A stretch of 64,000 nt of DNA from an uncultured virus (IMG/VR IMGVR_UViG_3300009370_000022) (lineage: Duplodnaviria; Heunggongvirae; Uroviricota; Caudoviricetes), in IMG/VR virus record IMGVR_UViG_3300009370_000022; one strand, written 5' to 3'. Positions 14,719 to 60,693 of the stretch are shown here, in pieces (the first letter of the stretch is position 1; each line of letters begins with the position of its first letter). The translations under genes and the position numbers were made by a program. The notes beneath the pieces were generated by a model that saw nothing but the letters and a program-made list of their open reading frames with translations, did not search any database and had not been told where the DNA came from.

Positions 14719-15629
14719 TATGCGCTTTGAAACATTCCTAAGTTTTTCATACCAGCATAACCTAAGCCTGCACCGATACCCATACCTAGTAAGTTCTGCA
14801 TAGGGCTTGCTGCTGGTTGGTCGGTCATTCTAGTTCCACCAGGGTAACCACCCATCAATCCTGTTAACTGTTCACCCATGAAACCATATCTTTGATAAGG
14901 TTCATACAATGCCATCTTCTGTTGAGCTGAATAAGTATCAGCTAATGCTTGTCTGTAAGCTTGTTCGCCTTGACCTAACTGAGAAATGTTTCCTACATTC
15001 CCCATTGCTAATTGAGGTTGAAGCTGTGCTAGTCCTGTTAGGTTTCCAAAATCTTGTTGTCTTGCCATCTGTGCTTGATTAAATGCTTGTCCTGTTTGTT
15101 GAGCAACCATCTGTCCAATCATTTTATTGTATTCTGTATCAGCTACCGACTGTTGAACTCCTTGTCTTGCTCCACCAAAAGCTCCTGCGCCTACCGCTTG
15201 AGCATTTCTTGCAATGTCTTGTTGAGCTTTAACGTCAGCCATTTGATCTTTCATTGCTTGAATAACATTAGTCGTGTAAGGACTCATGTAAGAAGAGATA
15301 GTTCCTGCTCCTGTTCCTGCTCCTGTACCTGTTAAGGCTGCGGCATCTGTTAAGTAAGGTTGATAGCCAGCGATTCCTGTACCACCAGCCCCAATCCCTG
15401 TAACTTGCCCAGTAGTGGAATCAAAGGTTAATTGACCTAAACCTGCTTGACTTGCTGCAGCTTGCTGCGCTGCTTGGCCTACTGCCCCAATCCCTGCTAC
15501 AGTTGGTTGAAATTTTGTTGTATCGATTGGCTTTGCACCTAATCTTGTAAGACCTTCACCGAAGGTTTTACCCATCGTTTCAATAAACGGTGCTGGTAAA
15601 TTAGTTTGTGTTATTGTTTCTGTTGCCAT
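14718..15629 (-). CDS. Putative DNA ejection/pilot protein
   Basis: Gln/Ala/Gly-rich; YMSPY, GAFGGAR; hydrophobic C-terminus. Confidence 0.65.
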   Translation of the reverse strand: MATETITQTNLPAPFIETMGKTFGEGLTRLGAKPIDTTKFQPTVAGIGAVGQAAQQAAASQAGLGQLTFDSTTGQVTGIGAGGTGIAGYQPYLTDAAALTGTGAGTGAGTISSYMSPYTTNVIQAMKDQMADVKAQQDIARNAQAVGAGAFGGARQGVQQSVADTEYNKMIGQMVAQQTGQAFNQAQMARQQDFGNLTGLAQLQPQLAMGNVGNISQLGQGEQAYRQALADTYSAQQKMALYEPYQRYGFMGEQLTGLMGGYPGGTRMTDQPAASPMQNLLGMGIGAGLGYAGMKNLGMFQSA

Positions 15630-24092: not shown

Positions 24093-24100
24093 GTTCTCCT

Positions 24101-24733: not shown

Positions 24734-24800
24734 ATGTCTTTATACATTGATTTTATATTAATTAAAACACAGAGTAAAGAAAAATATTAATCTAGATCAC

Positions 24801-27071: not shown

Positions 27072-27081
27072 ATGAGTCTCC

Positions 27082-27534: not shown

Positions 27535-27573
27535 ATTTATACTCCTTAAATTTATATTTATAATCTAATTTTT

Positions 27574-40488: not shown

Positions 40489-40671
40489 CTAGAACCACTT
40501 AACTTTTGATTTCTTGTCTTTTAACATTCTTCTTTGTCCACCAACTTGATCTTCTAGAGGTATTTTTTCAGACACAGTATATTCAACTCCGCCTTTTGCA
40601 TATCCATCTTTATTAGTGAATTTAGAAAAATTTACACCTTTGTAAAAAGGTTCTTTATCTTTTTTAGCCAT
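40489..40671 (-). CDS. Small basic protein
   Basis: NKDGYAKGG motif. Confidence 0.65.
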   Translation of the reverse strand: MAKKDKEPFYKGVNFSKFTNKDGYAKGGVEYTVSEKIPLEDQVGGQRRMLKDKKSKVKWF

Positions 40672-40906
40672 GTTTAATAGGTACTCCTCCCTTTAAATAT
40701 CCATCTTCATTTAAGAATTTAGATTGATCAGGTCTTTGTGTATTTAAAGCTGATCCCATTCTACCACCATGTGTTTGCACACCAACTCCTGGTGCACTTG
40801 TTTTAACTTCTTTCATAGTAGTATTTCGAGGTGCTGCATTTTTTACATGTAAGCCACCTTTTAAATAGCCATCTTTATTTAAATATTTTCCAAATGCGTT
40901 TTTCAT
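40664..40906 (-). CDS. Small basic protein with an internal repeat
   Basis: KYLNKDGYLKGG and KFLNEDGYLKGG; start moved to MKNAF (GAGG RBS). Confidence 0.65.
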   Translation of the reverse strand: MKNAFGKYLNKDGYLKGGLHVKNAAPRNTTMKEVKTSAPGVGVQTHGGRMGSALNTQRPDQSKFLNEDGYLKGGVPIKHG

Positions 40907-40907
40907 A

Positions 40908-41267
40908 TTAGCCTCTTTTCTTAGCCATCTTTTTAAAAGTTTTTGCAAGGTTATATCTTTTAGATCCTGGAGGGCAACTAGCACCACCAAATTTCTTACC
41001 AGTACAAGGTTTATCTTTTCTCATACCTTTAGTAGCTTTTTGAATCCAATTACTGTCTCCACCTTTTTTAAGGCCCACTCTTCCACCTTTGTTGTATCCT
41101 CTATTTAGTTCTCCAATAACTCTTCTCTTCTCAGCTCTTCTATTTGGATTCATTCTCTCAGCATCGATACGACCTACTTCTTCTAATAGGTTTGCTCTAC
41201 CACCAAGATTCATTAGTGCTCTTCCCGCAGTTTTAGCAGGGTTTAAAAGTATATTTCTCCAAGACAT
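40908..41267 (-). CDS. Small basic protein
   Basis: YNKGGRVGLKKGG, WIQKA, LAKTFKKM. Confidence 0.7.
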   Translation of the reverse strand: MSWRNILLNPAKTAGRALMNLGGRANLLEEVGRIDAERMNPNRRAEKRRVIGELNRGYNKGGRVGLKKGGDSNWIQKATKGMRKDKPCTGKKFGGASCPPGSKRYNLAKTFKKMAKKRG

Positions 41268-41275
41268 ATTGCTCC

Positions 41276-41524
41276 TTACTTGTTAACTTTATTTGAACGA
41301 CCAAATTTTTTCTTACGCTTTCCCCATTTTCCATAAGACTCATCTCTACGATCTTTCATAGATTGTTTCTTACCAGATTCTTTTCCAGTTCTCATTCCTA
41401 GAGATTCATCTTCTCTATCTTTGTAGCCCTGTTTTTTCTTTTTAACAGATCCACCTCTTTTCATGCCTTCTCTGTCGTAAGGGAATCTAGGTTTGTAAGG
41501 TCTTGTTCCAAAATCATCTCTCAT
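41276..41524 (-). CDS. Small basic protein
   Basis: MKRGGSV, KDREDES/KDRRDES repeat. Confidence 0.7.
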   Translation of the reverse strand: MRDDFGTRPYKPRFPYDREGMKRGGSVKKKKQGYKDREDESLGMRTGKESGKKQSMKDRRDESYGKWGKRKKKFGRSNKVNK

Positions 41525-41550: not shown

Positions 41551-44052
41551 CTATTCTCGAGGACCTTTCAAGGTTTTTACGTCTTTTCTTTTCATCACAT
41601 CAGAACGCATTTTAGCTTGATTAGACATCTCTTGTTTAACTAATGAAGTTTCAGCTCTAAGATTAGCTAAGTCCTCATTTTGCTCCATTTTTTCTTCTTG
41701 AAGCTCTCTATTTTGGACTAGTTTAGCTTTATCTAAGTTTACTCTTTCAGTAGTTTCGGTTTGTTTCCTATAGTTCTCCATAGCTTTAAGATCTAACTCT
41801 TGAGCTTTAAGTTTAACTAAAGGGTCACTATCTAACATGGAAGTAATCTCTTTTTCTTGCTTCATAAACTCTTCGGTAAATTCTGCAATTAAAACAGCTT
41901 TTCGTGCTTCCATCATTAAATTCAGTTGTTGAACTTTTTGTTGAAGTTCCGGCCCTTGTGCGCCTTGAGCTTGTAGTTGTTGTACTTCCATAATCTGGCT
42001 CGCAAATTCTAATTCAATATGCTCTTGTGCCATCAAGGATATATGTTCCATAATATTTTTTTCTAGAGCAGCCATAATAGGTGGATTATTTCTAGCAAAG
42101 TTAGTAGCCATAAAATTCATATGAGCTGTAATATGTGCTCTATGATCTTGGTTTCTATAAGCTTGAAAAGGTTTCATAGCCATCGCATCAATGTGTTCTA
42201 ATGCAGGATCTTTTGGAACCGGTGGTTGTGGAGGGGGTAATACTTGATCAATATTTTTAATTCCTAAAGCTTCGTACATTTTTCTATAAGATTCATACAT
42301 ATTATGCATTTGTGGATTAGACATAGATAATTGTAATTGAGTTTGTGCTAATTGAATTCTTTGAGTCATTGAAAAAATATTAGGATCCGCTACAGGAACA
42401 ATATCTATTCTGTCATCAAAATCCATTTGCTTAATTAATCTATTTCCCCCTACAACATCATAAGGATATTCTGGTGGTAAATATTGAGAAAATATATTTG
42501 CTAATAGTTTAAATTCCTCTTTTAAAGAATTATAAATTCTTTTGTGAATTGCGCTCATCACTCTTGAGCCTCTTTCTAATAATGCAACTGTCGTCCCGAC
42601 CGCTGCTCCTTGAGCTTTAGCATCTCCTACTTGGTTATCAGCAATTGAAGCAAATCTTTGACCCGCTTCAACAACAATTCCCATCAATTGTAATAATGTT
42701 GGTGAAGGTTCTTTATAAGGAAGATTAAAAAATGCATCTCTTAAACTTCCTCCTGGTGCATCAACGTCTCTCCATTCTCCTGGTTGTAAAGGTTGTGCAT
42801 CATCTCTAACTCTTACTCCTCTCTGTTTAAATCCAGATGGTAAATTAGCTAAAGTACCTGCATCTAGTAATTGGCGGAGAGCTACTGTTGCAGTTCTGCT
42901 CAATCCGCCAATCATATGAATAAGTCCAAATCCGTAGAAACCTAGTCCTGGTAGAAATTTAAAATGGACAAAGTATTGGACTTTCTTCTTCAGAGGATCG
43001 TTTGGTTGATAATTTCGTCTGATAGACAAAATTTTACGACCCCCAGCTTCCATCGTTACGATGTAAGGCAGTTTAATTCCTGTAGGCTCTCCTGTTTCAG
43101 GATCTACATCTTCAAAACCTTCCAGGTCTAAATTCACATGACATTCTAAAATTGTATAACTTTGATCACTCCGATTCATTGTTTTAGTAGTTCCTTCTAA
43201 TTTTCTTTCTTCCTCGTGAACTCTATCTTGCGTATAGGCTGGTGATCCTAATTCTATATCTCTATAGAATCCGGATACCTGTGCCTTACGTACGTCGTTC
43301 TCCGACATATACATACGTTGAATAACCGCTTCCGCATCTTCTAATGAGGTAGCAGAATACGGAACAATTAAATCATCCGCCTGTACAAATTTTGAAACTG
43401 CTCTTCCAACCATTTCATCATAATAAACTTTTTTAAATGATGAACCGGCTAGAGGTAAATAAAATAACATTTGATCAAACTCTGCATCATATTCTTTCAT
43501 TTCTTGTGTCAATTGATAATTCATATAATCTTTAACACGCATTGCTTGATCTTCTTTTTCTCTATTAGATGCTCCTAAAATTTGAGTTCTAACAGGACCA
43601 TTCGCTGGTAATAATTCTTTGTAAGCTGTAGCTTGAAACTGTGTTACTGCTTCAGCTAAAACTGGGTGTGTTGCACCTGAAGCTCCTTGGAATGGTTGAG
43701 ATCTTTGAGTATATTTAAATCCTAATAAATCTAAACCAGTTGTATAAGCTTGCTCCCATTCTCTTCGTGAAGCTCTGTAATCTTCGTATTGTTGATAAAG
43801 TTCTGAAGCTAATCTTCCTGTAATTTCATCACCAACTAATTCTGCTATGTTTGTAAAATGATCTTCTCCACCAGATGGTGAAACTTTTCCTGGTTCAAAA
43901 TCAATCTCGACTGAACCATCTTCATTTTCCTGAACGTCTACTCCAGGATCCATTTTATTCTGTTGATTAAGAACTTCTATTTCTAAATCTTCTTCTGGAT
44001 TAACTGTTACCTTTTCCCGATTATTAGGGAGCGCTTTGTCTATTTCTGCCAT
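41551..44052 (-). CDS. Portal protein
   Basis: 833 aa; HPVLAEAV, GSSFKKVYYD, GLGFYGFGLIH, VGTTVALLE; lies between TerL and the head genes. Confidence 0.9.
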   Translation of the reverse strand: MAEIDKALPNNREKVTVNPEEDLEIEVLNQQNKMDPGVDVQENEDGSVEIDFEPGKVSPSGGEDHFTNIAELVGDEITGRLASELYQQYEDYRASRREWEQAYTTGLDLLGFKYTQRSQPFQGASGATHPVLAEAVTQFQATAYKELLPANGPVRTQILGASNREKEDQAMRVKDYMNYQLTQEMKEYDAEFDQMLFYLPLAGSSFKKVYYDEMVGRAVSKFVQADDLIVPYSATSLEDAEAVIQRMYMSENDVRKAQVSGFYRDIELGSPAYTQDRVHEEERKLEGTTKTMNRSDQSYTILECHVNLDLEGFEDVDPETGEPTGIKLPYIVTMEAGGRKILSIRRNYQPNDPLKKKVQYFVHFKFLPGLGFYGFGLIHMIGGLSRTATVALRQLLDAGTLANLPSGFKQRGVRVRDDAQPLQPGEWRDVDAPGGSLRDAFFNLPYKEPSPTLLQLMGIVVEAGQRFASIADNQVGDAKAQGAAVGTTVALLERGSRVMSAIHKRIYNSLKEEFKLLANIFSQYLPPEYPYDVVGGNRLIKQMDFDDRIDIVPVADPNIFSMTQRIQLAQTQLQLSMSNPQMHNMYESYRKMYEALGIKNIDQVLPPPQPPVPKDPALEHIDAMAMKPFQAYRNQDHRAHITAHMNFMATNFARNNPPIMAALEKNIMEHISLMAQEHIELEFASQIMEVQQLQAQGAQGPELQQKVQQLNLMMEARKAVLIAEFTEEFMKQEKEITSMLDSDPLVKLKAQELDLKAMENYRKQTETTERVNLDKAKLVQNRELQEEKMEQNEDLANLRAETSLVKQEMSNQAKMRSDVMKRKDVKTLKGPRE

Positions 44053-44064: not shown

Positions 44065-47000
44065 TTAACCTACTCTAACTTGTTTTATATCAGAAGGCAA
44101 CCCCATGATTCCTTGCGGATTAGGCCCTGCTAATGGAGGTACTAAAGATTGTCTCCTTGCAATATCCCCTGTTTCAACTGTTCCACCACCAGCCTTTTTT
44201 TGCCAGGTATCTTTAGGAACCCATTCAGGGACCTCTCCTCCCACAACCTCTGCACCTTTTTCTCCTGACCATCCTTCAGGAGTCATATGTCCTTCAGGGT
44301 CAGGTAGAAGAGCTGCTTCTCCTTCGACGTCTTTAAAAATTTTCTTTTTAAAAGCTTCATCAACATCCGGTGCATCTGTAGTCTCGATAATAGAACCATC
44401 TTTAGCTACCATCTTTTTGTTACCTGTTAAATTTTCTAACGCTGCAACGACCTCATCTCCTTCTTCAAAAATATCTTTATAGTCAAACTCATCTCGCATT
44501 GGCGTAGACTGATCAGGATTGCCATAAGTAAATTCTGGTTCTTCGACTTTAACCCGCTGGTATTCCCAGGCCCCAGGATGTTCGGGATCTGCACCAAATT
44601 TCTGGAAACCCGTTTCTCCCGGTTTAAAGTTAATCCGTCTTGTCATATCACCATCAAAATCGTCCACGCTCCAAGAAATATCAATTTCTCCACTTATTGG
44701 ATTTTCTTCCAGTAGGACTTTTTTATTTACCATTTCAAAACCTGATTGTTTTTGCTGACCAGCTACCATGTCGAATTTAGGAACTTTAGTTGAAAGAATC
44801 ATTTCATAAATATCTCCATTCACATAATCTTTATCCGCCATCTGGATTAACTTCCCATGAGTTTTAATCTTAGCCACCGCTCTCGGGAACCACGCCGGCA
44901 TACCGTCTACTCCTACAAATTTTTTAGGGGCTTGTTTCACCGCTTGCTCTATTCCTTTTTTAGCACCTGTTTTAAATAATCCCGAAGCTCCGCCCGCGAT
45001 CCCCGCTGCAAGGCCCGCTAACCATTTTAAAAATCCTCTTCTATCCATTCCGCCACCAAACTTCATGCCCACACGTCCACCTTCATTAAAGAAATCAAAA
45101 TCATCAGCTCTATCTAAAGCTCTAACGTCTTTTCTCTTATCTTGGAATAAATCAATTTGTTCTTCCAGTCCTGAAAGAACTTGTCTTTGTTGAGTAGGAT
45201 CTAAAGTTTGTCCTCTTAATGTCATTTCGTCATCACCCCATAATCTATTACCTAAACCAAATGGTAAACTTCCTTGTTTAATAAGCGACATATAATTTTC
45301 TGCATCTTCTTCTGAAATTTTTCCTCTAGCTCTCATTGAATCTACAATGGCTTTTCCATCTCGGTAATCTTTGTATTGAGCATAACCAAAACTTAAAGCT
45401 CCTAGACCTAATGTTAAGGGTGCTGAAACTAAACCGGCTGCAACTGTAGCCGGTAAAAGAGCAGCTGCTCCTACTCCTATGGCAGCTCTCTTAGCTAATG
45501 CACCTAATCCTTTTTTAGCTACTTGTTTGGCCCCAGGAGAACCAATAATTGCTTCTGTAAGTTTTTTAGTTGCAGGTTTTAATCTTTTTTGAAATGCTAA
45601 ATCTGTTCCTGTAGCTGCGGGCGACATCATAGCTGTTCTCATAGCGCCTGGTAAATTTTTCCAACCTTGTACACTCTTTAAATTTTTAAGAGTGGTCATG
45701 TCTAATCCTCTTAGATTATGTTGTTTCAACATATTAGCATAATAAGCTTCTGCTGCTTTTAAACTTTCAGGACCTCTAATTCCTAAAGCCCATAATGCAT
45801 TCAATGGATCCGTGATCATTTCTCCAGCTTCCATTCCTTGTTTCCATTGCCACATTTTTTCTGGAATCATCATGGCTGGAATCATGGCCGTCCAACTTGT
45901 TAAATATCTTCCTCCTGGTAATCCTGCTTTAGCTAATGCTTGTCCTGCTCCTAACATAACGGGTAAAGCTGCAAATCCTGACTTAACTGGATTGTCTGCA
46001 ATCCAGTTTAATATTCCTTCTTGAGTTTCTGGATCTCCTGTTTCTGTGTTTACAAATTCACCCGTTGTTGAATTATATTTCATCGACTGGTCCGTGATCC
46101 CTGTTTCGTCAGCCTCCGCATCTCCCATCAGGGCTGCCGTACCAAGGCCCACGGCTCCCGCTCCTGCGACCAGGGCTCCAAGTCTTCCGCCTTTAGGGAT
46201 CTTGGATAAAAGTTGTCTAGCTATAGTTCTGAATTTTGTATTTTCACCTGGTTTAACTTTTGAGTTAGCAGCTTCTTGTATTAGTTGATCAGGGTTTTCT
46301 TGTAATGCTTGTTGCACCTGCTTAGCACATCCAGGTCCTTGAGGGCCTCCAGCTGCTTCTCCTACTCTAATATTTTTAACAGATGAAAGATTACAAATTG
46401 GACCTCCAGCTTGTCCTTGAGCAATAAAGTCTCTTATGTTATCTTCTATTTTAAACATTGCAGGATCATTTAATTTTCTAAATGATGCGGGAAGAATACT
46501 TGCTTTTGGTCTAACAGCTTCACTTCCCTCTAACATAATTCTACTTACTTCTGCAAGATTAGTATCGGTGGAAGCTGCTACAATATTTTTTCTAAGATCT
46601 AAATTATCAGCTAATTCGTTTATTAAATTTTTATTTTTATCTAAAATATTAGTTGCTCCAAAATCAACAATTTTAGTGACTCCAATTTTTTTACCACCCG
46701 GTTGAACTCTAATTTTACCCAAACTAGATTTATCCCCGGTCATCGTTTTCCAAATACCTTCCAATTGTTCTTGATTAGTTAAATATTTTTTATAAGTAGA
46801 CATGTCATTATTAGAAATAGCTTCTTGCATTCTTCTTAAATTTAATTGGGATCTTCGATCAAAAGTAGATTTAATAGCATTAATATCTTTCATCATAGGA
46901 GTAACCGCTAAAAATTGAGTTAAATTCCCATTTTTAATAGCTCGATAGGAAGCTGCATGATCTAAGTTAATCCACTTACTATCTATTCCATTATTTTCCA

Positions 47001-48033
47001 TGGCTGCTTTAAACATGTTGAACTCTCTTAATTTCTTGAGAGCTGCTTTTCTTTCAGGAGAACCATCTTGCGTGGAAGCTAAAATACTTTGAAGAATAGT
47101 TCGTTGATATGTTTTTTCTAAAGACTCAGATTCATAAACTTTTTGTCTAACTTTTTCTAATTCTTTATCACTATATTGTTTTAAAAATAAAGGTTGATCT
47201 GCTCTATTAGTTTTAGCAAGATTTCTCATCAACTTATTCATGTTGCCTTTAAGACGACCTGAATTAAATTCAAGTTTCTTCATTAAGGAATCAAAATCAT
47301 TATCGCCTGCTAAGATAGCTTTAAATAATCTGTTTTGATTTTTAGTGTATTTTAAGCCACTAGTATATCCAGTGAATTTAGCTCGTTGCTTTTCATTCAG
47401 TAAAGAAGTTTTTCCTTTATCAGTTCTTTGATACATAGTTTTGGCCTCTTCATTACCACCAAAAACCTTATCTAACCCTTTTCCTTCTTCTAAATTAATA
47501 GTTGGATTTTCTTTAACGATTCTATCGATTACAGCCCTATTTAAATCTGTTGGAGAAAAAGGATCTCCCTCTGCTGCTAATCTATTGAATTCATCTAAAA
47601 AAATAGGGTTATAACTCTCATGTAAAATTATTTTTTGGGCTTTGTTTAAAGGGGTAGTCTGTTTTTTAATATTTTCTAATTCATAAGACTTATTCTCAAT
47701 TAATTGATTTTTTATTCTTTGTTTTTCTTCTTTGAGTTTTATTTTTTCCTTAATCTTATCTAATCTTTTTTGTTCTTTTACCTCTTTTTTATTTTGTATA
47801 ATTCTTAATTTTTGTTCTTTTTCTTTTTTCTTACGTAGTCTTGCTTTTTCTCTTCTTGCCGGTCCATATTTTTTTTCATATTCTCTGGCTTTTTTAGATT
47901 CATTCTTTTTTCTTATCCCAGCAATCCACTCTTTGCTTCCTATATAATGAGTTTGAGTATCTCTTGGACCTATATACGTGCTATAAGTACCAGAGTTTTT
48001 GCCAGTGCCTTTTATGGTTTGTTTAATGGCCAT
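44065..48033 (-). CDS. Large multi-domain protein (HNH-like segment, TM segments, internal Tat-like signal)
   Basis: LDH...N..K, hydrophobic helices, FNEGGRVGMKFGGGMDRRGFLK. Confidence 0.7.
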   Translation of the reverse strand: MAIKQTIKGTGKNSGTYSTYIGPRDTQTHYIGSKEWIAGIRKKNESKKAREYEKKYGPARREKARLRKKKEKEQKLRIIQNKKEVKEQKRLDKIKEKIKLKEEKQRIKNQLIENKSYELENIKKQTTPLNKAQKIILHESYNPIFLDEFNRLAAEGDPFSPTDLNRAVIDRIVKENPTINLEEGKGLDKVFGGNEEAKTMYQRTDKGKTSLLNEKQRAKFTGYTSGLKYTKNQNRLFKAILAGDNDFDSLMKKLEFNSGRLKGNMNKLMRNLAKTNRADQPLFLKQYSDKELEKVRQKVYESESLEKTYQRTILQSILASTQDGSPERKAALKKLREFNMFKAAMENNGIDSKWINLDHAASYRAIKNGNLTQFLAVTPMMKDINAIKSTFDRRSQLNLRRMQEAISNNDMSTYKKYLTNQEQLEGIWKTMTGDKSSLGKIRVQPGGKKIGVTKIVDFGATNILDKNKNLINELADNLDLRKNIVAASTDTNLAEVSRIMLEGSEAVRPKASILPASFRKLNDPAMFKIEDNIRDFIAQGQAGGPICNLSSVKNIRVGEAAGGPQGPGCAKQVQQALQENPDQLIQEAANSKVKPGENTKFRTIARQLLSKIPKGGRLGALVAGAGAVGLGTAALMGDAEADETGITDQSMKYNSTTGEFVNTETGDPETQEGILNWIADNPVKSGFAALPVMLGAGQALAKAGLPGGRYLTSWTAMIPAMMIPEKMWQWKQGMEAGEMITDPLNALWALGIRGPESLKAAEAYYANMLKQHNLRGLDMTTLKNLKSVQGWKNLPGAMRTAMMSPAATGTDLAFQKRLKPATKKLTEAIIGSPGAKQVAKKGLGALAKRAAIGVGAAALLPATVAAGLVSAPLTLGLGALSFGYAQYKDYRDGKAIVDSMRARGKISEEDAENYMSLIKQGSLPFGLGNRLWGDDEMTLRGQTLDPTQQRQVLSGLEEQIDLFQDKRKDVRALDRADDFDFFNEGGRVGMKFGGGMDRRGFLKWLAGLAAGIAGGASGLFKTGAKKGIEQAVKQAPKKFVGVDGMPAWFPRAVAKIKTHGKLIQMADKDYVNGDIYEMILSTKVPKFDMVAGQQKQSGFEMVNKKVLLEENPISGEIDISWSVDDFDGDMTRRINFKPGETGFQKFGADPEHPGAWEYQRVKVEEPEFTYGNPDQSTPMRDEFDYKDIFEEGDEVVAALENLTGNKKMVAKDGSIIETTDAPDVDEAFKKKIFKDVEGEAALLPDPEGHMTPEGWSGEKGAEVVGGEVPEWVPKDTWQKKAGGGTVETGDIARRQSLVPPLAGPNPQGIMGLPSDIKQVRVG

Positions 48034-50507
48034 TAAACCCCCCTAAACATGGAGCCTACACCACCGCCTGCTGCGTTTTTAGTTCTTGGTGTTTTTTGAA
48101 ATGTTTGTATAATCTCTTCAGGACCCATTCCTTTTTCTTGCATCTTTAATGCTTCCCTCATTGTTGCTTTAACTTCTGCAATTCTTTGAGGATTCTTATC
48201 TGCTAAAATATTATTAATTAAATCATCCGTAATTCCTGGGAATTCCATTTGTAACTGATATCTTTCTGCAGATTGAGGTAAACCTAAATCTTTAAGTTGT
48301 GAAATTTCTTTTTTAATTCCACTTAATTCATCTTTAACAATAGGAGAATCGGCTTTTCTAATATAATTATTAATATCTAAAAATTGATCTGGCATACCTC
48401 TTTGAATTCTTAAAAAATCAAACATTGCAACATTACCCCCTAGTTCTTCAGTAATATCTAAAGCCACTAATCTATTTTTAACTCCCTGTCTGATTTGTCT
48501 CATATCTTCCCAATTAGGATGACGTCTTGATGGAAGGGGACCTAATTTTTTTAAAGTATCTTTTGCTTTAGCTCTTTCAAGCGCAATCCAATTTGATGGA
48601 ACTTTCTTACCTAAATAATCTACCGCATCTGGTCTAAAAAATTTTTCTTGTAATAACCATGTTGTATGATCTGTTGATTCGGGGTCCAAGAAGTGTTTAT
48701 TTTTAGTTGGAGTTGCAATAGGCCCCATCACTTTAGCTTCAGCTGCGGTCATTAAATCTTGGGTATCTAATTTCATATTAAAATCTTCAAATAGTTTTCT
48801 AGTTGCTTCATCTTCAACTGCTGTTTCAGGTCGGTCTATATCTGCAGCTTTTTTCAAGGTTCCTTCTCCAAATTTATCGTCTACTTTTTTAATTAAACTT
48901 TGAATTCCTTTTTTTCCGGAACCTTTCCACATTCCTACTCTTCCACCTTCAGCTAATCCAAACATTTCCAATTTCTTTTTCAGAGTCTCCCACCAATCTG
49001 TTGTAGCTTTTTGTCTAGTTGATTTATCTAATAAAATATCACCTGGTCCAACAAAAGGGTTCTTTTCAAAATTTCTTTCAAGACCTTCTTGAACCTCCCA
49101 TGGCTCAAGTTCTATTTTTTTAATCTTAGGTATTCCAGAGGTAGAAGCATAAGCTCTGGCTATGTCTTTATCAGGCGAAAAAAATCCTCCTTTTAAGTCT
49201 TCGTCAAAAGTAGATTCTTTCATATATTTACCCCATCCTGCATCCGTTTGATCTTTTATCAATTGGTCATGAGTTTTTTTCCACTCAGGATCGTCTTTAA
49301 ACTCCCCCAAATGACCTTCACTTTTATCACCTCTATAATACGTCTTTTTAGGACGTTTATTCCATTCATCGATTTGATAAGCTAAAGATCTTTTATTCGC
49401 AAGAATTCTATTCTCATTAATCTTAGCACCACTCATTTCATCCGCTGTTGTTATAAAATCGTCAAGAATTTCTTTTTCAAAAATTTTACCTTCATCATCA
49501 AGATCCCTTACTTTTTTAAACATACTTTCTAAACCTTTTTTTTCACTTAAATTTTTATTAGCCCAATCTTTAATTTTATGGACTAAATTTTTAGTAGCGT
49601 CTTTAGATCCATATTTTAATCCCACTCTTCCACCTTGATTAAATGGAATATCGTCGTCATCAGGTAATTTTGGTTTAATTTCTTCTGCCTCTGTTAGAAC
49701 ATATCTCCCATCTCCAACATCTGCTTGATTTAAAGGTTTTAAAAACTGATCATCAACATTTTCTCTTAATAATTGTTCATAATGTTTGTAGCTTTCACCT
49801 TTTTCGAAAACCGTTACAATATCTTCAACGTTTTTAATTGCATCATCTCCATAAAGTCTTTGAAACACTAAAATAGGATCGTGTTCAATCATTGGCGAAT
49901 ATTTCAGAACTCTTTCTTTATCTAAGTCGTTTAATTTCAATCTTCCGTTTTTAAACTCGGTTTGAAGGAATTCTCTAAGTGCTGTTCTCATATTTCCTTC
50001 GGCATACATGCTACCACCAAAAGATTTGTTATCTGGAACTTTAAACGGGTCTCCTCCATGTCCAGCGGTTAATAAAGCCTTCTCCAGTTCTTTTTCTGCA
50101 AAAGTTTTAGCTTCATCAGTTGATGTTTTTAAATTTTTGGCAGCATCTTCTAAATCTGTCATAGCTTTCATCATAGAACCCACTCCTTGAGTGTCTACAC
50201 CTCCTCCACCAATACTTTTGTAAGTATTAAGATTATTTAAAAAATTTACCGTCTCTGCATCATTAGCATTCATGATGAATTTTGCTTCATTAGCAAAAGC
50301 ATCTAATGCATCACCCATAGTTTTATTTTGAGAACGCATTGCCTCTAACATGTTGGGCTTAAATGGATTAATGTCCTTACCGCTAGTAATTCTTTGAATA
50401 TTAGTACCTCTACCCATGATATCACTTGCTTTGATACCAATTCCTTCTAAAGCTTCTAAAACTTTTTTCTTTAGGATCTCAGATGTGACTCCAGGTATTT
50501 TTGGCAT
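48033..50507 (-). CDS. Multi-domain protein with an ART-like module
   Basis: YYRG...GFFSPDKDIARAYA between two GGRVG motifs. Confidence 0.7.
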   Translation of the reverse strand: MPKIPGVTSEILKKKVLEALEGIGIKASDIMGRGTNIQRITSGKDINPFKPNMLEAMRSQNKTMGDALDAFANEAKFIMNANDAETVNFLNNLNTYKSIGGGGVDTQGVGSMMKAMTDLEDAAKNLKTSTDEAKTFAEKELEKALLTAGHGGDPFKVPDNKSFGGSMYAEGNMRTALREFLQTEFKNGRLKLNDLDKERVLKYSPMIEHDPILVFQRLYGDDAIKNVEDIVTVFEKGESYKHYEQLLRENVDDQFLKPLNQADVGDGRYVLTEAEEIKPKLPDDDDIPFNQGGRVGLKYGSKDATKNLVHKIKDWANKNLSEKKGLESMFKKVRDLDDEGKIFEKEILDDFITTADEMSGAKINENRILANKRSLAYQIDEWNKRPKKTYYRGDKSEGHLGEFKDDPEWKKTHDQLIKDQTDAGWGKYMKESTFDEDLKGGFFSPDKDIARAYASTSGIPKIKKIELEPWEVQEGLERNFEKNPFVGPGDILLDKSTRQKATTDWWETLKKKLEMFGLAEGGRVGMWKGSGKKGIQSLIKKVDDKFGEGTLKKAADIDRPETAVEDEATRKLFEDFNMKLDTQDLMTAAEAKVMGPIATPTKNKHFLDPESTDHTTWLLQEKFFRPDAVDYLGKKVPSNWIALERAKAKDTLKKLGPLPSRRHPNWEDMRQIRQGVKNRLVALDITEELGGNVAMFDFLRIQRGMPDQFLDINNYIRKADSPIVKDELSGIKKEISQLKDLGLPQSAERYQLQMEFPGITDDLINNILADKNPQRIAEVKATMREALKMQEKGMGPEEIIQTFQKTPRTKNAAGGGVGSMFRGV

Positions 50508-51646
50508 TATATGTCCCTGCTTCTTCCTGAAAGTGGTATGTCCATTAATCCACCCCGAGCTAAACCATAAGCTTTTACTTTTCCACCTGGTCCAACTCTG
50601 CTTGAAGTTCTTGCTACGTTTTGAGCTCTAGTTGTACGTGCTGGAGTGCTTTTTAAAAATGCACCTCCTGTTGGTTCTTCTTGTCTACCTGGACCAGCTT
50701 GAGTTACGTCTCCAGTTGCGCCACCTTTATAATCAAGGCCATGATACCAGTGAGTAGGTGCTCGTCCGCTTTCATAACTCTTTTTGTATTTTTTGTGTTT
50801 TGCAACTTGATCAAAATATCTGTTTACTAGTGGTTTAATTCGTTTCAAATAATTGTTCACGGCTCCCACAGAGCCTAGTTGATCAATCATATATTTTTTA
50901 CTTAAATCACTTCTGCTTGTACCAAACCAAATATCTGTAAAATTATCTGATTCTTCTTCATCAGGATTCATCATCTTTGCTCTTTCTATATCCCTAGCTC
51001 TGGTAAAAAATTCACCCATCTCATGGTCAGAAAGTTTATGCGGCCCATATCCAATTTCTATACCTTTTGCTTCATCAGCAATAGGTTTAAAACCACGTTG
51101 TGTATCTAAACCATGTGCAACCTCATGACTTAGTATATCTGTTATATATTTATTTATATCTGCCTGATTTGCTGTTTGGTTTCTACTTGAAGTAGTCATA
51201 TTACCCTCAACAATGTCTGTCATTCCAAAATCTTTTATTGGTCCAGGATACCAATCAGGAGCAGGAGACAGTTCATTTCTAGGTGAAGTAGGAAAAGTTC
51301 CATAAGCTTCCATCAGCTTGGGTTTTATTGCTTGGCGCGCACCATAACTCGATCCGTGAGGAAACGAACCAGCTGGCAGAAGTTCAACATTTAAAGGTTG
51401 ATAAGGGTCTTCTACATCCCATTGTGAATAACTTGTTTTATCGGTATCAAAATCATAATCTTGGGAATAATAATTTTCACCTTCAGGAACAAGAGTTGGG
51501 TCTATCTTATACAAAGGACCTTTTGGTGGACTAAAATAATCTTCAAATTGTAACTCTTGATATGGATAAAGCCCAGCGTCAAATTCTGGATATCCTTGTG
51601 ATTGCAACTCCATAAGTTTATATTGTAAATCTGTAATTCCAGACAT
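50507..51646 (-). CDS. Protein with a HExxH zincin-like motif
   Basis: ILSHEVAHG...EFFTR; C-terminal LARGGL. Confidence 0.65.
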   Translation of the reverse strand: MSGITDLQYKLMELQSQGYPEFDAGLYPYQELQFEDYFSPPKGPLYKIDPTLVPEGENYYSQDYDFDTDKTSYSQWDVEDPYQPLNVELLPAGSFPHGSSYGARQAIKPKLMEAYGTFPTSPRNELSPAPDWYPGPIKDFGMTDIVEGNMTTSSRNQTANQADINKYITDILSHEVAHGLDTQRGFKPIADEAKGIEIGYGPHKLSDHEMGEFFTRARDIERAKMMNPDEEESDNFTDIWFGTSRSDLSKKYMIDQLGSVGAVNNYLKRIKPLVNRYFDQVAKHKKYKKSYESGRAPTHWYHGLDYKGGATGDVTQAGPGRQEEPTGGAFLKSTPARTTRAQNVARTSSRVGPGGKVKAYGLARGGLMDIPLSGRSRDI

Positions 51647-53115
51647 TAATAATACTCCCTTTTCATAGGTTCTCGTTTTTCATCTTTGTAATCTTCCGGG
51701 TGAGGAAGAAAACCGCCTTGTCTGAAGCGCATGATAGCCTGTGTTGTTGAGTCCACAAGGTCATCGTGGTCGCCATAAGGGAATGCTGCGCATTCTTCTA
51801 TGACTTCCTCCGCAAACTTCTGTTCTGGCGCCCATATAATACCACTTTCGAACAAAGGTGCAACTGAATTGACCCTTACGTGCTTGTCATTGCCCTTCGA
51901 TGGTGTGAAGTTCACAACCGGAATATCCATCTGACGAAGTTCGTGAGTCAGCGGAAGGCCCGATGCTTTCGATTCGATAATTACAGTTTCAGGTTGCCAA
52001 TATTTGTACTGTTCCAAGGCCCGTCGTCGAAGTTCCGGGAATTCATAACGACCTTTTAGTGAATCGAGTAAAATTAAGTTCAAAGGAGAGTCTTCATTTG
52101 GGTAAAAAACGCCCCAAGTCGTAATTGCACTAAAATCGGCCGTTTCTTTTTTCATAAATGCAGTATCGTAAGACTGAATTACGTGTTGAAGCGTTGGAAT
52201 CCAATCTTTATCCCATTTTCGCCACCATTCTCGCTTAATTATTGCTCCTTCTTCAGAAGTGGGTCCTTGCATCCACTGTGCATTCCATTTTGCAACCGGA
52301 AGAGTTGCTTTAACTTTCTCTAATTCGTCCTGATTCCAGTATTCTGGCCACATTGGTTTTCCATCTTCCATGATTGCCGGAAATTCGATTACTTCCCATT
52401 GGTCTGCTTTAACTTCTTTTTGATTTTTTAGTAACATTCCCGTTAAATCTTTAGTACTCCAACGAGTCATTACACAAACGATAGATCCCCCTGGTTGAAG
52501 ACGTTGACGTGGTCCAGAAGTATACCATTCATACGCACTTTCTAACTTAGTTTCGCTTAATGCATCTTGTTCAGAATGAGGATCGTCAATAATTAATAAA
52601 TCAGCACCCCGGCCGGTGATGGCACCGCCGACTCCAGCAGCGAAATACTCGCCGCCTTGTGCTGTCTCCCACCTCCCAGCGGCTTTGGAGTCCTCTTGTA
52701 ATTTTGTAATAAAAATTTTTTTATATTCTTCGGAATCAATTAAGTGTTTTGCCTTACGACCAAAACGAATTGCTAATTCTCCAGTGTGAGTTGCTTGAAT
52801 GATTTTTAATTTTGGATTACGGCCCACCATCCACGATGGCAGAAGATAAGACGCAAATTCTGATTTTGTATGTCTTGGTGGCATATTGATGATTAATCGC
52901 TTAATTTCACCAGTAGCCAACTTATTAAATTTTTCTGCGACGTGTCTGTGATGAGCACCCTCAATAAAATCAGGCCATACACACTTTACAAAGCTCAAAA
53001 AATCACTTTTAGCTTTATTCTGTATCTTTTTTTCAGCATGCATTACCTGATAACGCTTATAGGTCTTCCGGACATCCGCAGGTAATTTTGAAATATCTAC
53101 ATTATCTAGGTTCAT
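51646..53115 (-). CDS. terL: Terminase large subunit
   Basis: NMPPRHTKS, LIIDDP, SYDTA..ADFSA, HDDLVD. Confidence 0.95.
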   Translation of the reverse strand: MNLDNVDISKLPADVRKTYKRYQVMHAEKKIQNKAKSDFLSFVKCVWPDFIEGAHHRHVAEKFNKLATGEIKRLIINMPPRHTKSEFASYLLPSWMVGRNPKLKIIQATHTGELAIRFGRKAKHLIDSEEYKKIFITKLQEDSKAAGRWETAQGGEYFAAGVGGAITGRGADLLIIDDPHSEQDALSETKLESAYEWYTSGPRQRLQPGGSIVCVMTRWSTKDLTGMLLKNQKEVKADQWEVIEFPAIMEDGKPMWPEYWNQDELEKVKATLPVAKWNAQWMQGPTSEEGAIIKREWWRKWDKDWIPTLQHVIQSYDTAFMKKETADFSAITTWGVFYPNEDSPLNLILLDSLKGRYEFPELRRRALEQYKYWQPETVIIESKASGLPLTHELRQMDIPVVNFTPSKGNDKHVRVNSVAPLFESGIIWAPEQKFAEEVIEECAAFPYGDHDDLVDSTTQAIMRFRQGGFLPHPEDYKDEKREPMKREYY

Positions 53116-60613: not shown

Positions 60614-60693
60614 AATACAACTATTAACATATACAAAGAAAGAAGAGTCATCAACCCTAGAAATGTAAAGACCATTATAAAAATTTTATTCAT
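60610..60693 (-). CDS. Tiny single-TM peptide (27 aa)
   Basis: MNKIFIMVFTFLGLMTLLSLYMLIVVL; ATGA overlaps at both ends. Confidence 0.6.
   Translation of the reverse strand: MNKIFIMVFTFLGLMTLLSLYMLIVVL

What the first reader, a model, noticed from the sequence alone, without database searches (positions are those of the whole stretch)
44065..51646. Candidate new system: GG-motif-delimited effector polyproteins between TerL and portal
Seen: a hydrophobic-x-x-G-G motif, often as the 8-aa tandem h-x-x-GGR(V/I)G-h-x-x-G(G/S), occurs in nine proteins: FNQGGRVGLKYGS, LAEGGRVGMWKGS, NAAGGGV (824 aa); FNEGGRVGMKFGG, KAGGG (1322 aa); LARGGL (379 aa); plus genes at 13636, 15629 and 40489-41524. It sits at boundaries between unrelated modules or near C-termini, and the DNA is similar too (CCCACTCTTCCACCTT at 41073 and 49621). 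The flanked modules look like an ART, a zincin, an HNH-like segment and a Tat-signal domain. Inference: a packaging/ejection tag or protease site, possibly also a recombination joint, that lets the phage load an exchangeable set of effectors into the virion. I know of no description of it.
Basis: partly seen in the sequence, partly recalled or inferred. Interest (0 to 1): 0.85.

Follow-up and report, generated by a model that had tools for sequence, protein, structure and literature searches.

The report
Shared peptide tag on pelagiphage head-island proteins
A very abundant group of ocean phages carries, between its DNA-packaging and portal genes, fast-changing proteins built from swappable pieces that are joined and ended by one short conserved peptide, most likely a common address tag for loading them into the virus head.

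Summary
The motif is real. The window is a relative of Pelagibacter phage HTVC027P. The full form, h-[A/N]-x-GGR[I/V]G-h-x-x-G, occurs 7 times in 4 proteins (0.0035 expected). In 82 related loci it falls 73:1 on the coding strand.

- **Location.** It lies in predicted disordered linkers. Homology breakpoints cluster around it (227 of 694 against about 91 by chance).
- **Shuffling.** The modules it joins occur in other orders and other proteins in relatives.
- **Terminal forms (new here).** A C-terminal form (…A-x-GG-[L/I]-A-x-M-L-G-E-stop and variants) ends 41 of 102 island proteins against 1 of 406 controls. A second tail (GPxPQG) marks the gene just before portal.
- **The island.** The TerL-portal gap ranges from 102 to 7,584 bp.
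- **Module functions.** No ART, zincin or HNH assignment was confirmed. Only the Tat-like RRxFLK element has profile support.
- **Protease.** None was found.

Best reading (0.4): a shared docking tag that loads diverse proteins into the head, as the T4 capsid-targeting sequence does, with a pattern like encapsulin targeting peptides. Cleavage site (0.25) and envelope-acting proteins (0.15) remain open. Packaging is untested.

The scan earlier noted similar bead-on-a-string head proteins with other motifs in other phages.

The parts
51646..53115 (-). Terminase large subunit (489 aa), upstream border of the island
   Evidence: phrog_38 E 4e-108, Terminase_6C. Its stop overlaps the next start as TAATG.
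50507..51646 (-). 379-aa island protein with HEVAH and the end ...AYGLARGGLMDIPLSGRSRDI
   Evidence: No Pfam or PHROG family. Atlas gives weak metallopeptidase look-alikes, TM 0.26-0.40, from a poor model. No homolog in 82 loci. ARGG[L/I]-type ends are seen in L002 and L035.
48033..50507 (-). 824-aa modular protein: A(1-288)-motif-B(303-516)-motif-C-D(742-824)-terminal tag
   Evidence: Mosaic homolog map. AF2 pLDDT is below 50 at 275-300, 517-536 and 810-824.
49605..49643 (-). Motif copy FNQGGRVGLKYGS (824 aa, residues 289-301)
   Evidence: HMM 17.6 bits, in a disordered linker. Many homolog alignments stop at residues 300-302.
48918..48956 (-). Motif copy LAEGGRVGMWKGS (824 aa, residues 518-530)
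   Evidence: HMM 18.0 bits, in a disordered linker.
48960..49601 (-).
   Evidence: R392, S444 and E477 are invariant in 8 homologs. No Pfam or PDB hit. Atlas leads are weak: an ART-PolyVal cluster at score 0.76 and DRAT at TM 0.34. The module sits at the C-terminus in P0012, P0016 and P0027.
48036..48077 (-). C-terminal tag NAAGGGVGSMFRGV-stop of the 824-aa protein
   Evidence: Conserved ends in P0002, P0003 and P0013. It aligns with a strong internal motif in P0042. 84 of 120 family members end with the GG-h tag.
44065..48033 (-). 1322-aa protein: Lys-rich N-terminal part, G/A-rich hydrophobic segments (618-636, 687-705, 842-869), motif, Tat-like element, beta domain, GPxPQG tail
45052..45090 (-). 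Motif copy FNEGGRVGMKFGG (1322 aa, residues 982-994)
   Evidence: HMM 16.9 bits.
44974..45048 (-). Tat-like element MDRRGFLKWLAGLAAGIAGGASGLF (residues 996-1020)
   Evidence: TAT_signal 20.1 bits against a cut-off of 22.7; 24 of 49 homologs match at E<=0.01. R, R, F, L and K are 90% or more conserved. 54 of 60 RR-bearing homologs have GGR[VIL]G within 30 aa upstream.
44068..44199 (-). C-terminal tail KKAGGGTVETGDIARRQSLVPPLAGPNPQGIMGLPSDIKQVRVG of the gene just before portal
   Evidence: The GPxPQG tail occurs in 17 of 69 last-before-portal ORFs, 0 of 38 earlier ORFs and 0 of 406 controls, and in 74 of 107 near homologs. KKAGGG aligns with KKAGGGRIGYADRG in L006.
41551..44052 (-). Portal protein (833 aa), downstream border of the island
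   Evidence: SU10_portal E 3e-18, phrog_1216 E 3e-71. 65% identical to the HTVC027P portal.
41276..41524 (-). 82-aa very basic protein (pI 10.4) with the degenerate MKRGGSVKKKK
40908..41267 (-). 119-aa basic protein (pI 11.2) with the best motif copy, YNKGGRVGLKKGG (DNA 41058-41096)
   Evidence: HMM 22.6 bits. Relatives L003, L005 and L068 keep it.
40492..40990 (-). Small basic ORFs with degenerate copies (GYLKGGLHVKN, THGGRMGSAL, GYLKGGVPIKHG, GYAKGGVEYT)
   Evidence: HMM 3.8 bits or less, so they are weak on their own.
15629..17875 (-). 748-aa protein, first of the putative ejection-protein cluster, with three motif copies (DNA 17321-17359, 17165-17203, 16334-16372)
   Evidence: HMM 17.3, 18.8 and 13.3 bits. 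Its HTVC027P homolog gp82 has copies at 18.0 and 6.0 bits. The cluster ends with a 1359-aa homolog of Cellulophaga phage virion structural proteins.
13636..14718 (-). 360-aa protein with the degenerate N-terminal copy YNYGGRVKAQN
   Evidence: HMM 2.5 bits; weak.

Best explanation
The three genes between TerL and portal form a hypervariable, dispensable island of the head operon. It occurs in HTVC027P-like pelagiphages.

Its products are strings of autonomous modules of unknown function. One intrinsically disordered linear peptide joins the modules and usually ends each protein. The internal form is [K/F/M/Y]-[A/N]-x-G-G-R-[I/V]-G-[F/L/Y/M]-x-x-G-[G/S/T]. The C-terminal form is A-x-G-G-[L/I]-A-x-[M/L]-L-G-E-stop and variants.

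The same peptide is on the small basic proteins behind portal and on the first protein of the putative ejection-protein cluster.

I read it as a shared docking (head-incorporation) tag. A conserved part of the procapsid would bind it and so load whatever carries it: the shell interior, the scaffold or the portal. The GPxPQG tail of the last gene before portal would be a second such handle.

- Shown: the motif, its disorder, its place at joints and ends, module shuffling, island variability, and the restriction of the motif to these proteins.
- Inferred: binding, the receptor, presence in virions, and ejection into the host.
- Cutting at the tag may follow but is not required by this reading.
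For: 1. **Specificity.** The window has 7 copies against 0.0035 expected. In 82 loci, GGR[VIL]G falls 73:1 on the coding strand. There are 89 strong HMM hits in 69 ORFs: 70 upstream of portal, 18 downstream, 1 on the other strand. In 80 loci centred on the capsid gene (395 kb; 122,045 aa of ORFs) there is only 1 hit of 6 bits or more.
2. **Linear motif in linkers.** AF2 pLDDT is below 50 exactly at 275-300, 517-536 and 810-824.
3. **Joints.** 227 of 694 internal homology breakpoints lie within 20 aa of a motif, against a null of 91 +/- 17. After clustering it is 73 of 346 against 42 +/- 6. No shuffle of 2000 reached either value.
4. **Order-independent modules.** B follows D in P0012, P0016 and P0027. 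The 1322-aa Tat-like module sits in one protein with 824-aa modules in P0039 and P0042.
5. **C-terminal forms conserved to the last residue.** 41 of 102 unique island ORFs against 1 of 406 control ORFs. 28 of 38 ORFs that are not last before portal. 84 of 120 members of the 824 family and 72 of 133 distant representatives, with MLGE ending 38 and 39 of them. A bare cleavage site would not need a conserved terminal stub.
6. **An unrelated protein with the same kind of end.** The 379-aa protein has no homolog in 82 loci but ends in an ARGGL-type tail.
7. **Accessory and fast-evolving.** The TerL-portal gap is 102-7,584 bp in 23 loci. In L170 the portal is 67% identical but the island protein is 27% identical over 260 aa.
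8. **Co-expression with head genes.** The TerL/379/824/1322 junctions are all TAATG overlaps.
9. **No protease.** Pfam and PHROG scans of 55 window ORFs found no protease other than the M15 endolysin-type peptidase.
[quoted passage not shown] Encapsulin targeting peptides NTGGDLGIRK and DGSLGIGSLKG bind through two hydrophobic residues separated by Gly, plus a basic residue (PMC7925596, passages). Compare GGRVGLKKGG here.
Against: - No datum places any of these proteins in a virion; no virion proteomics of this phage group was found.
- No receptor is identified.
- The 1322-aa protein has G/A-rich hydrophobic segments and a Tat-like RRxFLK element. These fit a protein that is inserted into the host envelope from the cytoplasm at least as well as a packaged one.
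- The likeness to encapsulin peptides is a pattern read by eye. A profile of the 7 copies found no encapsulin cargo among PDB sequences; its best hits (E 0.22) were the strand before the P-loop of F1-ATPase beta.
- Complete genomes of HTVC023P, DSL-LC04 and CRP-901 share the head genes but lack the motif (best 3.1 bits). Any receptor must therefore be a feature of one subclade.
- One locus (L075) has no island at all.
- Internal copies would be redundant for docking unless the chains are cut or multivalent binding matters.
Confidence: 0.4

Rival explanations
1. The motif is a protease site. The island products are polyproteins cut at or next to GG-R, by a phage or host enzyme, into separate modules before or after packaging. 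This is how phiKZ, SPN3US and T4 head proteins are processed.
For: - The motif sits in disordered linkers between autonomous, order-independent modules.
- A Tat-like signal follows one copy by 12-20 aa in 54 of 60 homologs, so a cut would make it N-terminal.
- Terminal copies could be relics of fusions.
- Earlier notes of this scan describe bead-on-a-string proteins between terminase and portal whose joints match their phage's protease sites (not checked here).
- Recalled, not tested: Gly-Gly-Arg is a classic trypsin-type substrate, and GG sites are used by adenain and papain-like viral proteases.
Against: - No protease family other than the M15 endolysin-type peptidase was found in 55 ORFs scanned.
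- The only HExxH protein (379 aa) has no homolog in 82 loci that do have the motif.
- The 824-aa protein has no cysteine, so it is not a cis-acting thiol protease.
- Conservation spans about 13 residues and is strongest after GG.
- Terminal forms are conserved to the last residue in dozens of divergent proteins. That is unexpected for a stub that would be thrown away.
Confidence: 0.25
2. The island proteins are not virion cargo. They are made late and act in the infected cell's envelope, for example in superinfection exclusion, lysis control or membrane-bound head assembly. The motif is then a linker or signal-proximal element tied to membrane targeting.
For: - RRxFLK plus a G/A-rich helix is 90% or more conserved and matches TAT_signal in 24 of 49 homologs.
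- There are three further hydrophobic segments in the 1322-aa protein.
- All Rickettsiales examined, with SAR11 counted among them, had tatC (PMC3827258, one passage).
- The motif-RR unit is found in 1180 protein clusters and is nearly always internal.
- Recalled: actinobacterial Rieske proteins use an internal Tat motif before their last helix.
- Hypervariability also fits exclusion proteins.
Against: - Most motif copies are not followed by any hydrophobic segment. The 824, 748, 379 and 360-aa proteins have none above threshold.
- The motif also marks very basic small proteins and a protein of the putative ejection cluster.
- The genes are translationally coupled inside the head operon.
- Ejection proteins of short-tailed phages also enter membranes (SU10 gp20-24; PMC9509320, passages).
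Confidence: 0.15
3. The motif is only a favoured flexible linker that spreads with module shuffling. Microhomology may help this. It is not recognised by any partner.
For: It is glycine-rich, disordered and at joints. A 16-nt identity is shared by two copies.
Against: - R, the [I/V] and the aromatic or aliphatic residue are invariant or nearly so in 75 distinct copies.
- Codons vary, so the peptide is what is selected.
- Dedicated terminal forms exist where no linker is needed.
- The motif is absent from other multi-domain proteins of the same phages.
Confidence: 0.1
4. The motif is a Gly-Arg hook that holds internal proteins on the packaged AT-rich DNA.
For: The Arg is invariant between glycines. 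The motif occurs in small proteins of pI 10-11. The genome is 31-49% G+C in 2-kb windows, mostly below 41%.
Against: - The conserved hydrophobic positions and the acidic or neutral terminal forms (…MLGE) do not suit DNA binding.
- Proteins cannot ride in on DNA through the portal (established knowledge).
Confidence: 0.05

Closest known systems
Phage T4 internal proteins (IPI-III, Alt) with the capsid targeting sequence
   Same: Diverse, fast-evolving proteins share only a short conserved peptide that puts them into the prohead (PMC3012670, passage). A packaged ADP-ribosyltransferase (Alt) is among them (recalled).
   Different: The T4 signal is N-terminal, binds the scaffolding core and is removed by the prohead protease at L/I-x-E (recalled). 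Here the peptide is internal or C-terminal and has another sequence, no protease is seen, and packaging is unproven.
Encapsulin cargo-loading (targeting) peptides
   Same: These are short disordered, mostly C-terminal peptides. They have glycines, two hydrophobic residues separated by Gly, and a basic residue (NTGGDLGIRK; consensus DGSLGIGSLKG; PMC7925596, passages). Compare GGRVGLKKGG and GGGVGSMFRGV-stop here. The shell in both cases has the HK97 fold (Phage_capsid_4).
   Different: The likeness is by eye only: there is no profile match and no binding evidence. Here the peptide also occurs inside chains, several per protein, in a DNA-filled phage, and the genes sit beside portal rather than beside the shell gene.
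Polyvalent proteins of phages and conjugative elements, and MuF-effector fusions (Iyer et al. 2017)
   Same: Large multi-module, mosaic proteins encoded among head genes of terminase-portal phages, proposed to be packaged and delivered with the DNA (PMC5512222, passages).
   Different: That class is defined by known enzyme and LPD domains. None was found here, in 61 + 55 + 49 proteins scanned. A search of that paper for 'linker' gave 0 occurrences, and the passages I read describe no common joint peptide.
Protease-processed head and ejection proteins of phiKZ, SPN3US and T4; earlier notes of this scan on terminase-portal bead proteins
   Same: A short motif recurs at module borders of head-associated proteins (search listings; scan notes).
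   Different: Those motifs (x-x-E or h-x-A-A) match the phage's own prohead protease. No such protease is detectable here, and the motif has terminal forms.
Ejection proteins of short-tailed phages (SU10 gp20-24; T7 gp14-16; P22 gp7/16/20)
   Same: Portal and adaptor belong to SU10-type families. A 748/303/360/1359-aa cluster stands where such proteins are expected, and the 1359-aa protein is a homolog of Cellulophaga phage virion structural proteins. SU10 virions release five ejection proteins (PMC9509320, passages).
   Different: No sequence match to SU10 proteins was sought or found for the island genes. No shared tag is described for those systems in the passages read.
Twin-arginine (Tat) signal peptides
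   Same: (S/T/D)-R-R-x-F-L-K followed by a weakly hydrophobic G/A-rich stretch and basic residues. The consensus is S/T-R-R-X-F-L-K (PMC3383694, abstract in listing).
   Different: It is internal, at about residue 996 of 1322, not N-terminal, and no AxA site is evident. The window's copy is below Pfam's cut-off.

Membership tests
T4-type capsid-targeting sequence / internal head proteins | Short conserved peptide shared by otherwise unrelated proteins | tested here: met
   Motif HMM hits in unrelated modules and proteins. Terminal tag on 41 of 102 island ORFs against 1 of 406 controls.
T4-type capsid-targeting sequence / internal head proteins | The proteins are present inside the head | not testable with these tools
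   No virion proteomics for this phage group was found.
T4-type capsid-targeting sequence / internal head proteins | N-terminal position and removal by a prohead protease | tested here: not met
   The motif is internal or C-terminal. No prohead-protease family was found in 55 ORFs.
Encapsulin targeting peptide | Disordered, mostly C-terminal peptide with h-G-h core and a basic residue | tested here: met
   Column counts of 75 copies, terminal forms and disorder, compared with the sequences quoted in PMC7925596. This is pattern level only.
Encapsulin targeting peptide | Binds the luminal face of the HK97-fold shell protein | tested here: inconclusive
   One complex-prediction job gave no verdict. 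No other test was possible.
Encapsulin targeting peptide | Sequence relationship to known cargo peptides | tested here: inconclusive
   A profile of 7 copies against PDB sequences gave no encapsulin cargo (best E 0.22, F1-ATPase beta). Chains under 20 residues are not in that library.
Polyvalent proteins (Iyer et al. 2017) | Several known effector, enzyme or LPD domains in one chain | tested here: not met
   Pfam gave 0 families in 61 homologs. In 55 more it gave one sub-cut-off DUF2624 match in one protein. Only TAT_signal and a weak DUF903 match appeared in 49. Nothing appeared at E<=10 on 7 segments beyond chance-level rows.
Polyvalent proteins (Iyer et al. 2017) | Mosaic multi-module architecture in a head-gene context | tested here: met
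Prohead-protease-processed polyprotein | A maturation protease encoded by the phage | tested here: not met
   No S77, S78, S49, U9 or U35-type match in the window. The 153-aa and 201-aa head-module proteins have no PDB sequence match. A novel protease cannot be excluded.
Prohead-protease-processed polyprotein | Cleavage at the motif | not testable with these tools
   Needs terminomics.
Tat signal peptide (PF10518) | S/T-R-R-x-F-L-K plus h-region, scoring above the curated cut-off | tested here: inconclusive
   The window scores 20.1 bits against 22.7. 24 of 49 homologs match at E<=0.01, best 9.8e-6. R, R, F, L and K are 90% or more conserved.
Tat signal peptide (PF10518) | N-terminal location | tested here: not met
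   It is at residue 996 of 1322. It is internal in nearly all of the 150 listed representatives.
ADP-ribosyltransferase (R-S-E type / ART-PolyVal) | ART fold or profile match with the catalytic R, S, E-x-E | tested here: inconclusive
   R392, S444 and E477 are invariant in 8 homologs, but there is no [Q/E]-x-E spacing. No Pfam or PDB profile hit. Foldseek and VIA found nothing on the whole-protein model. Atlas leads only.
Zincin metallopeptidase (379 aa) | HExxH in a zincin fold | tested here: inconclusive
   HEVAH is present. No Pfam or PDB match. The Atlas model is poor (pLDDT 0.43) with TM 0.26-0.40 to DUF4344 and M90.

The most novel reading that the evidence does not exclude
HTVC027P-like pelagiphages use a universal, transferable address peptide that docks any protein carrying it onto the inside of their HK97-fold capsid. 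It has an internal and a C-terminal form, with a GG-x-h-G-h core. This would be a phage counterpart, and possibly the evolutionary source or sister, of the encapsulin cargo-loading peptide. It would let one of the ocean's most abundant phage groups swap a fast-evolving set of injected proteins.
Probability: 0.15. Interest if true: 0.85.

Novelty: new variant of a known kind. Interest (0 to 1): 0.65.

Why it matters
[quoted passage not shown] Their structural genes are almost unannotated (bioRxiv 10.1101/2019.12.14.876532, passages).

A single short peptide marks every variable protein of the head island. It gives a handle to list candidate packaged or injected proteins in thousands of uncultured genomes. 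It also gives a simple experiment, tag a reporter and look in virions, on a cultured phage-host pair.

If the tag docks cargo on the capsid, it links phage internal-protein loading with encapsulin cargo loading, whose origin is open. If it is a cut site, it points to an unrecognised protease. Either way, the family of at least 1180 protein clusters with no known domain is a large piece of viral dark matter that now has an organising rule.

Tried and rejected
- **Binding test.** Complex prediction of the capsid protein (alignment A3) with residues 272-312 of the 824-aa protein gave no verdict. It counts neither way.
- **PDB sequence searches.** Those with the 379-aa protein, alignments A1 and A4, and the 153-aa and 201-aa proteins gave nothing significant.
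- **Motif profile against PDB.** It gave only a chance-level look-alike, PFAKGGKVGLFGG before the Walker A loop of F1-ATPase beta (E 0.22).
- **Internal translation start at GGRVG-M.** Rejected, because the residue after G is F, L or Y in 62 of 75 copies and M in 7.
- **DNA-level repeat or recombination signal.** Rejected, because codons vary.
- **Cis-acting thiol protease in module A.** Rejected, because the 824-aa protein has no Cys.
- **Gene co-occurrence screen.** I looked for genes present with the motif and absent without it, in 3 against 3 genomes of which two were partial. It gave only small unknown ORFs, a GP88-family gene and early genes, with no protease or obvious receptor.
- **PF18760 search in the window's genome.** No genome is held.
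- **Literature.** String searches for GGRIG, GGRVG, GGRIGF and GGRVGF returned 121 papers. The 20 listed were none about phages. AGMLGE, GGLAGML, GGIAGVL and LSYLMGM returned 0 papers.
- **Supplements.** Supplementary files of the pelagiphage papers could not be opened. They may hold gene annotations or proteomics that bear on virion content.

Full report
**What the window is.**
- All genes of interest are on the minus strand.
- The portal (41551-44052; SU10_portal, phrog_1216) is 65% identical to that of Pelagibacter phage HTVC027P, 60% to phage 023Pt_psg01 and 51% to HTVC023P.
- Gene order is as follows:
  1. TerL (51646-53115)
  2. a 379-aa gene
  3. an 824-aa gene
  4. a 1322-aa gene
  5. 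the portal
  6. four small basic ORFs
  7. a phrog_2524 protein
  8. a GroES-like protein
  9. a 334-aa scaffold-like protein
  10. 153-aa and 201-aa unknowns
  11. the capsid protein (36229-37131)
- Further on lie SU10-type adaptor and fibre genes, then a 748/303/360/1359-aa cluster before an M15 peptidase.
- HTVC023P-type phages were described as the most abundant known marine viral group, with very few recognisable structural genes (bioRxiv 10.1101/2019.12.14.876532, passages).

**The motif is real.**
- GGR[V/I]G-h-x-x-G[G/S] occurs 7 times. All copies are in coding frames of the minus strand, and none lies in the other five frames.
- Residue shuffles of the 59 long ORFs give 0.10 copies of the pentapeptide and 0.0035 of the extended form.
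- An HMM built from 75 distinct copies scores the seven at 13.3-22.6 bits. Everything else in the window scores 3.8 bits or less.
- The carriers are the 824-aa protein (2 copies), the 1322-aa protein (1), a 119-aa basic protein behind portal (1) and the 748-aa protein (3).
- NAAGGGVGSMFRGV-stop and KKAGGG nevertheless align with strong copies in relatives.
- Ends like …ARGGL… recur in other island proteins.
- The 16-base identity is confirmed at 41074 and 49621, with a third near-copy at 48934. Codons differ among the copies, so it is the peptide that is conserved.

**Relatives.**
- The 80 best portal-linked IMG/VR loci were taken from at least 600 candidates. Two GenBank relatives were added.
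- In these 82 loci, GGR[VIL]G occurs 73 times on the coding strand and once on the other strand.
- There are 89 strong HMM hits in 69 ORFs: 70 upstream of portal, 18 downstream and 1 on the other strand. These counts include the window.
- The consensus is [K/F/M/Y]-[A/N]-x-G-G-R-[I/V]-G-[F/L/Y/M]-x-x-G-[G/S/T].
- As a control I scanned 80 loci centred on the capsid gene (395 kb; 122,045 aa in ORFs of 80 aa or more). They hold one hit of 6 bits or more.
- HTVC027P gp41, gp42 and gp82 carry the motif. gp82 is the homolog of the 748-aa C-terminus.
- The complete genomes of HTVC023P, DSL-LC04 and CRP-901 do not carry it; their best score is 3.1 bits.
- The motif therefore belongs to the HTVC027P-like subclade. 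Portals in the loci examined are 58-96% identical to the window's.

**It sits at joints of swappable modules.**
- The AF2 model of the 824-aa protein used 61 sequences and has mean pLDDT 70.
- It has folded, mostly helical blocks. Confidence is below 50 at 275-300, 517-536 and 810-824. Those stretches are the two motifs and the terminal tag.
- Among 55 motif-bearing proteins, 227 of 694 internal BLAST breakpoints lie within 20 aa of a motif. Random placement gives 91 +/- 17.
- After clustering the breakpoints, the count is 73 of 346 against 42 +/- 6. None of 2000 shuffles reached either value.
- One caveat applies: the motif itself can seed an alignment edge.
- The 120 database homologs of the 824-aa protein are mosaics:
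  - Module A (1-300) ends at the motif in dozens of them.
  - Module B (303-516) lies at the C-terminus, after module D, in P0012, P0016 and P0027.
  - The closest relative, L003, lacks B altogether.
  - The motif-plus-Tat-like module of the 1322-aa protein lies in one chain with 824-type modules in P0039 and P0042.

**New: terminal forms.**
- Printing the last 40 residues of all island ORFs showed that many end in A-x-GG-[L/I]-A-x-[M/L]-L-G-E-stop. Close variants are …GGLSYLMGM, …KGGIAGVL, …GGIASLKKK and …GGGVGSMFRGV.
- A pattern for this end is met by 41 of 102 unique island ORFs, against 1 of 406 control ORFs from the capsid-centred loci.
- It is met by 28 of 38 ORFs that are not the last one before portal.
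- It ends 84 of 120 proteins of the 824 family and 72 of 133 distant representatives of the 1322 family. MLGE is the final four residues in 38 and 39 of them.
- The ORF just before portal often carries another conserved tail, GG…ARR…PP.SGP.PQG…VRVG-stop.
- The GPxPQG core of that tail is in 17 of 69 such ORFs, 0 of 38 earlier ORFs and 0 of 406 controls. It is in 74 of 107 near homologs.

**The island.**
- In 23 loci that hold both TerL and portal, the gap runs from 102 bp (L075, no gene) to 7,584 bp. The window's is the largest.
- Minimal islands have two small proteins. One ends in …KGGIAGVL. The other carries …YFPKMAKGGRIGY….
- Island proteins diverge far faster than their neighbours. In L170 the portal is 67% identical, while the related island protein is 27% identical over 260 aa. 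In L171 the TerL fragment is 82% identical.
- In the window, the TerL/379, 379/824 and 824/1322 junctions are all TAATG overlaps. This indicates coupled translation within the head operon.

**What the modules are.**
- Pfam finds nothing in the 379-aa and 824-aa proteins. In the 1322-aa protein it finds only a sub-threshold TAT_signal.
- It finds no family in 61 mosaic homologs. In 55 further large family members it finds one sub-cut-off DUF2624 match in one protein.
- Fold searches with the 824-aa model are empty.
- Module B keeps an invariant R392, S444 and E477 in 8 homologs. The Atlas gives weak leads to ART-PolyVal and DRAT.
- No profile or PDB match supports an ART. I leave that assignment open.
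- The 379-aa protein has HEVAH and weak, low-confidence metallopeptidase look-alikes. It has no homolog in 82 loci.
- No HNH family matched.
- The Tat-like element is the best supported:
  - R, R, F, L and K are 90% or more conserved.
  - 24 of 49 homologs match TAT_signal at E<=0.01.
  - 60 of 107 homologs have RRxF[LIVM]K. Of these, 54 have GGR[VIL]G 12-20 residues upstream. The other 6 start less than 25 residues before RR.
- The unit is found in 1180 clusters at 50% identity and is almost always internal.
- The domain behind it is beta-rich and has only noise-level fold matches.

**How it most likely works.**
- The facts to explain are these:
  - a roughly 13-residue disordered peptide with an invariant GG-R and two hydrophobic positions;
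  - its restriction to the variable proteins around portal and to one protein of the putative ejection cluster;
  - its position between autonomous modules;
  - its dedicated forms at the extreme C-terminus.
- A recognition peptide fits all of these. A plain linker does not.
- Two kinds of recognition are possible: docking, or cutting.
- I favour docking, that is a head-incorporation tag, for three reasons:
  1. The terminal forms are conserved to the last residue.
  2. Conservation is strongest after GG.
  3. No protease is detectable.
- The concept is that of the T4 capsid-targeting sequence (PMC3012670).
- The pattern is GG, then x, then hydrophobic-Gly-hydrophobic, then a basic residue. 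That is the pattern of encapsulin targeting peptides as quoted in PMC7925596.
- That likeness is by eye. No sequence profile backs it.
- The receptor is unknown. Presence in virions is inferred from gene position, from the basic small proteins, and from the neighbourhood of the 748-aa protein. That neighbourhood includes a 1359-aa homolog of Cellulophaga phage virion structural proteins. SU10 is known to package ejection proteins (PMC9509320).

**Rivals.**
- A protease site remains plausible. It would explain why each module has its own copy, and it would turn the Tat-like element into an N-terminal signal.
- The hydrophobic segments and the Tat-like element of the 1322-aa protein also allow a reading in which these proteins work in the infected cell's envelope. 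The host lineage has tatC (PMC3827258, one passage).
- Internal Tat motifs before a last helix are known in some Rieske proteins (recalled), so cutting is not needed for that reading.
- A DNA hook and a mere linker fit the data poorly.

**Novelty.**
- String searches of the paper library for the motif and its terminal forms found nothing on phages.
- The pelagiphage papers read do not mention these genes.
- Tags and cut sites on phage internal proteins, and mosaic polyvalent proteins, are known kinds.
- This scan has noted bead-like proteins between terminase and portal with other motifs in other phages (not checked here).
- This is therefore a new variant: a new peptide with internal and terminal forms, no linked protease, and a very abundant phage group.

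Noticed in passing
window 44068-44199; L003-L082 last ORF before portal: The gene immediately upstream of portal ends in a second conserved tail, GG..(I/V)ARR...PP.SGP.PQG...VRVG-stop. It is in 17 of 69 such ORFs and 0 of 406 controls. It may be a portal-directed handle distinct from the main motif.
   Followed up: partly
window 49644-49670 (824 aa, residues 280-288): The stretch just before motif 1 reads LPDDDDIPF. From memory this resembles the acidic DDDIPF tip of bacterial SSB. The family consensus keeps DDDDxPF. Not tested.
   Followed up: no
window 39320-39775: A GroES-like gene (Cpn10, E 4e-11) with a 45-residue N-terminal extension sits inside the head module. It is conserved in HTVC027P, HTVC023P, DSL-LC04 and CRP-901.
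   Followed up: no
window 17942-19742 and 23340-25361: Two glycosyltransferase-like genes and three 2OG-Fe(II) oxygenase genes flank the glycine-rich fibre genes (25368-30237, Gly_rich_2). This suggests enzymatic modification of virion proteins.
   Followed up: no
window 9550-13629: The 1359-aa protein matches virion structural proteins of Cellulophaga phages phi18:3, phi13:2 and phi19:3 (24% identity over about 530 aa). It also matches a Pseudoalteromonas phage gene annotated as ADP-ribosyltransferase (27%).
   Followed up: partly
window 46130-46200 (1322 aa, residues about 612-636): A motif-like KGGRLGALVAGAGAVGLGTAALM runs straight into the first hydrophobic segment. In L003 and L006 the same place reads GGRIG and scores as a strong motif.
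   Followed up: no
window 56629-57225 (+): A GP88-family gene (PF17338, E 6e-27) is 72% and 67% identical in the two motif-bearing relatives. It is absent from the three motif-less genomes compared.
   Followed up: no
window 5602-7374: Three genes match the Pam3 gp34, gp33 and gp32 families next to the DNA polymerase and helicase genes. A LAGLIDADG-like ORF (E 8.5e-4) lies at 60690-61124.
   Followed up: no
L085 (CRP-901) 5168-13880; L084 (DSL-LC04) 17490-19967: In CRP-901 the large unknown genes stand after portal rather than before it (526, 857 LysM-annotated, 456 and 519 aa nuclease-annotated). In DSL-LC04 a single 825-aa 'PcfJ-like' gene fills the TerL-portal gap. Neither genome has the motif.
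   Followed up: partly
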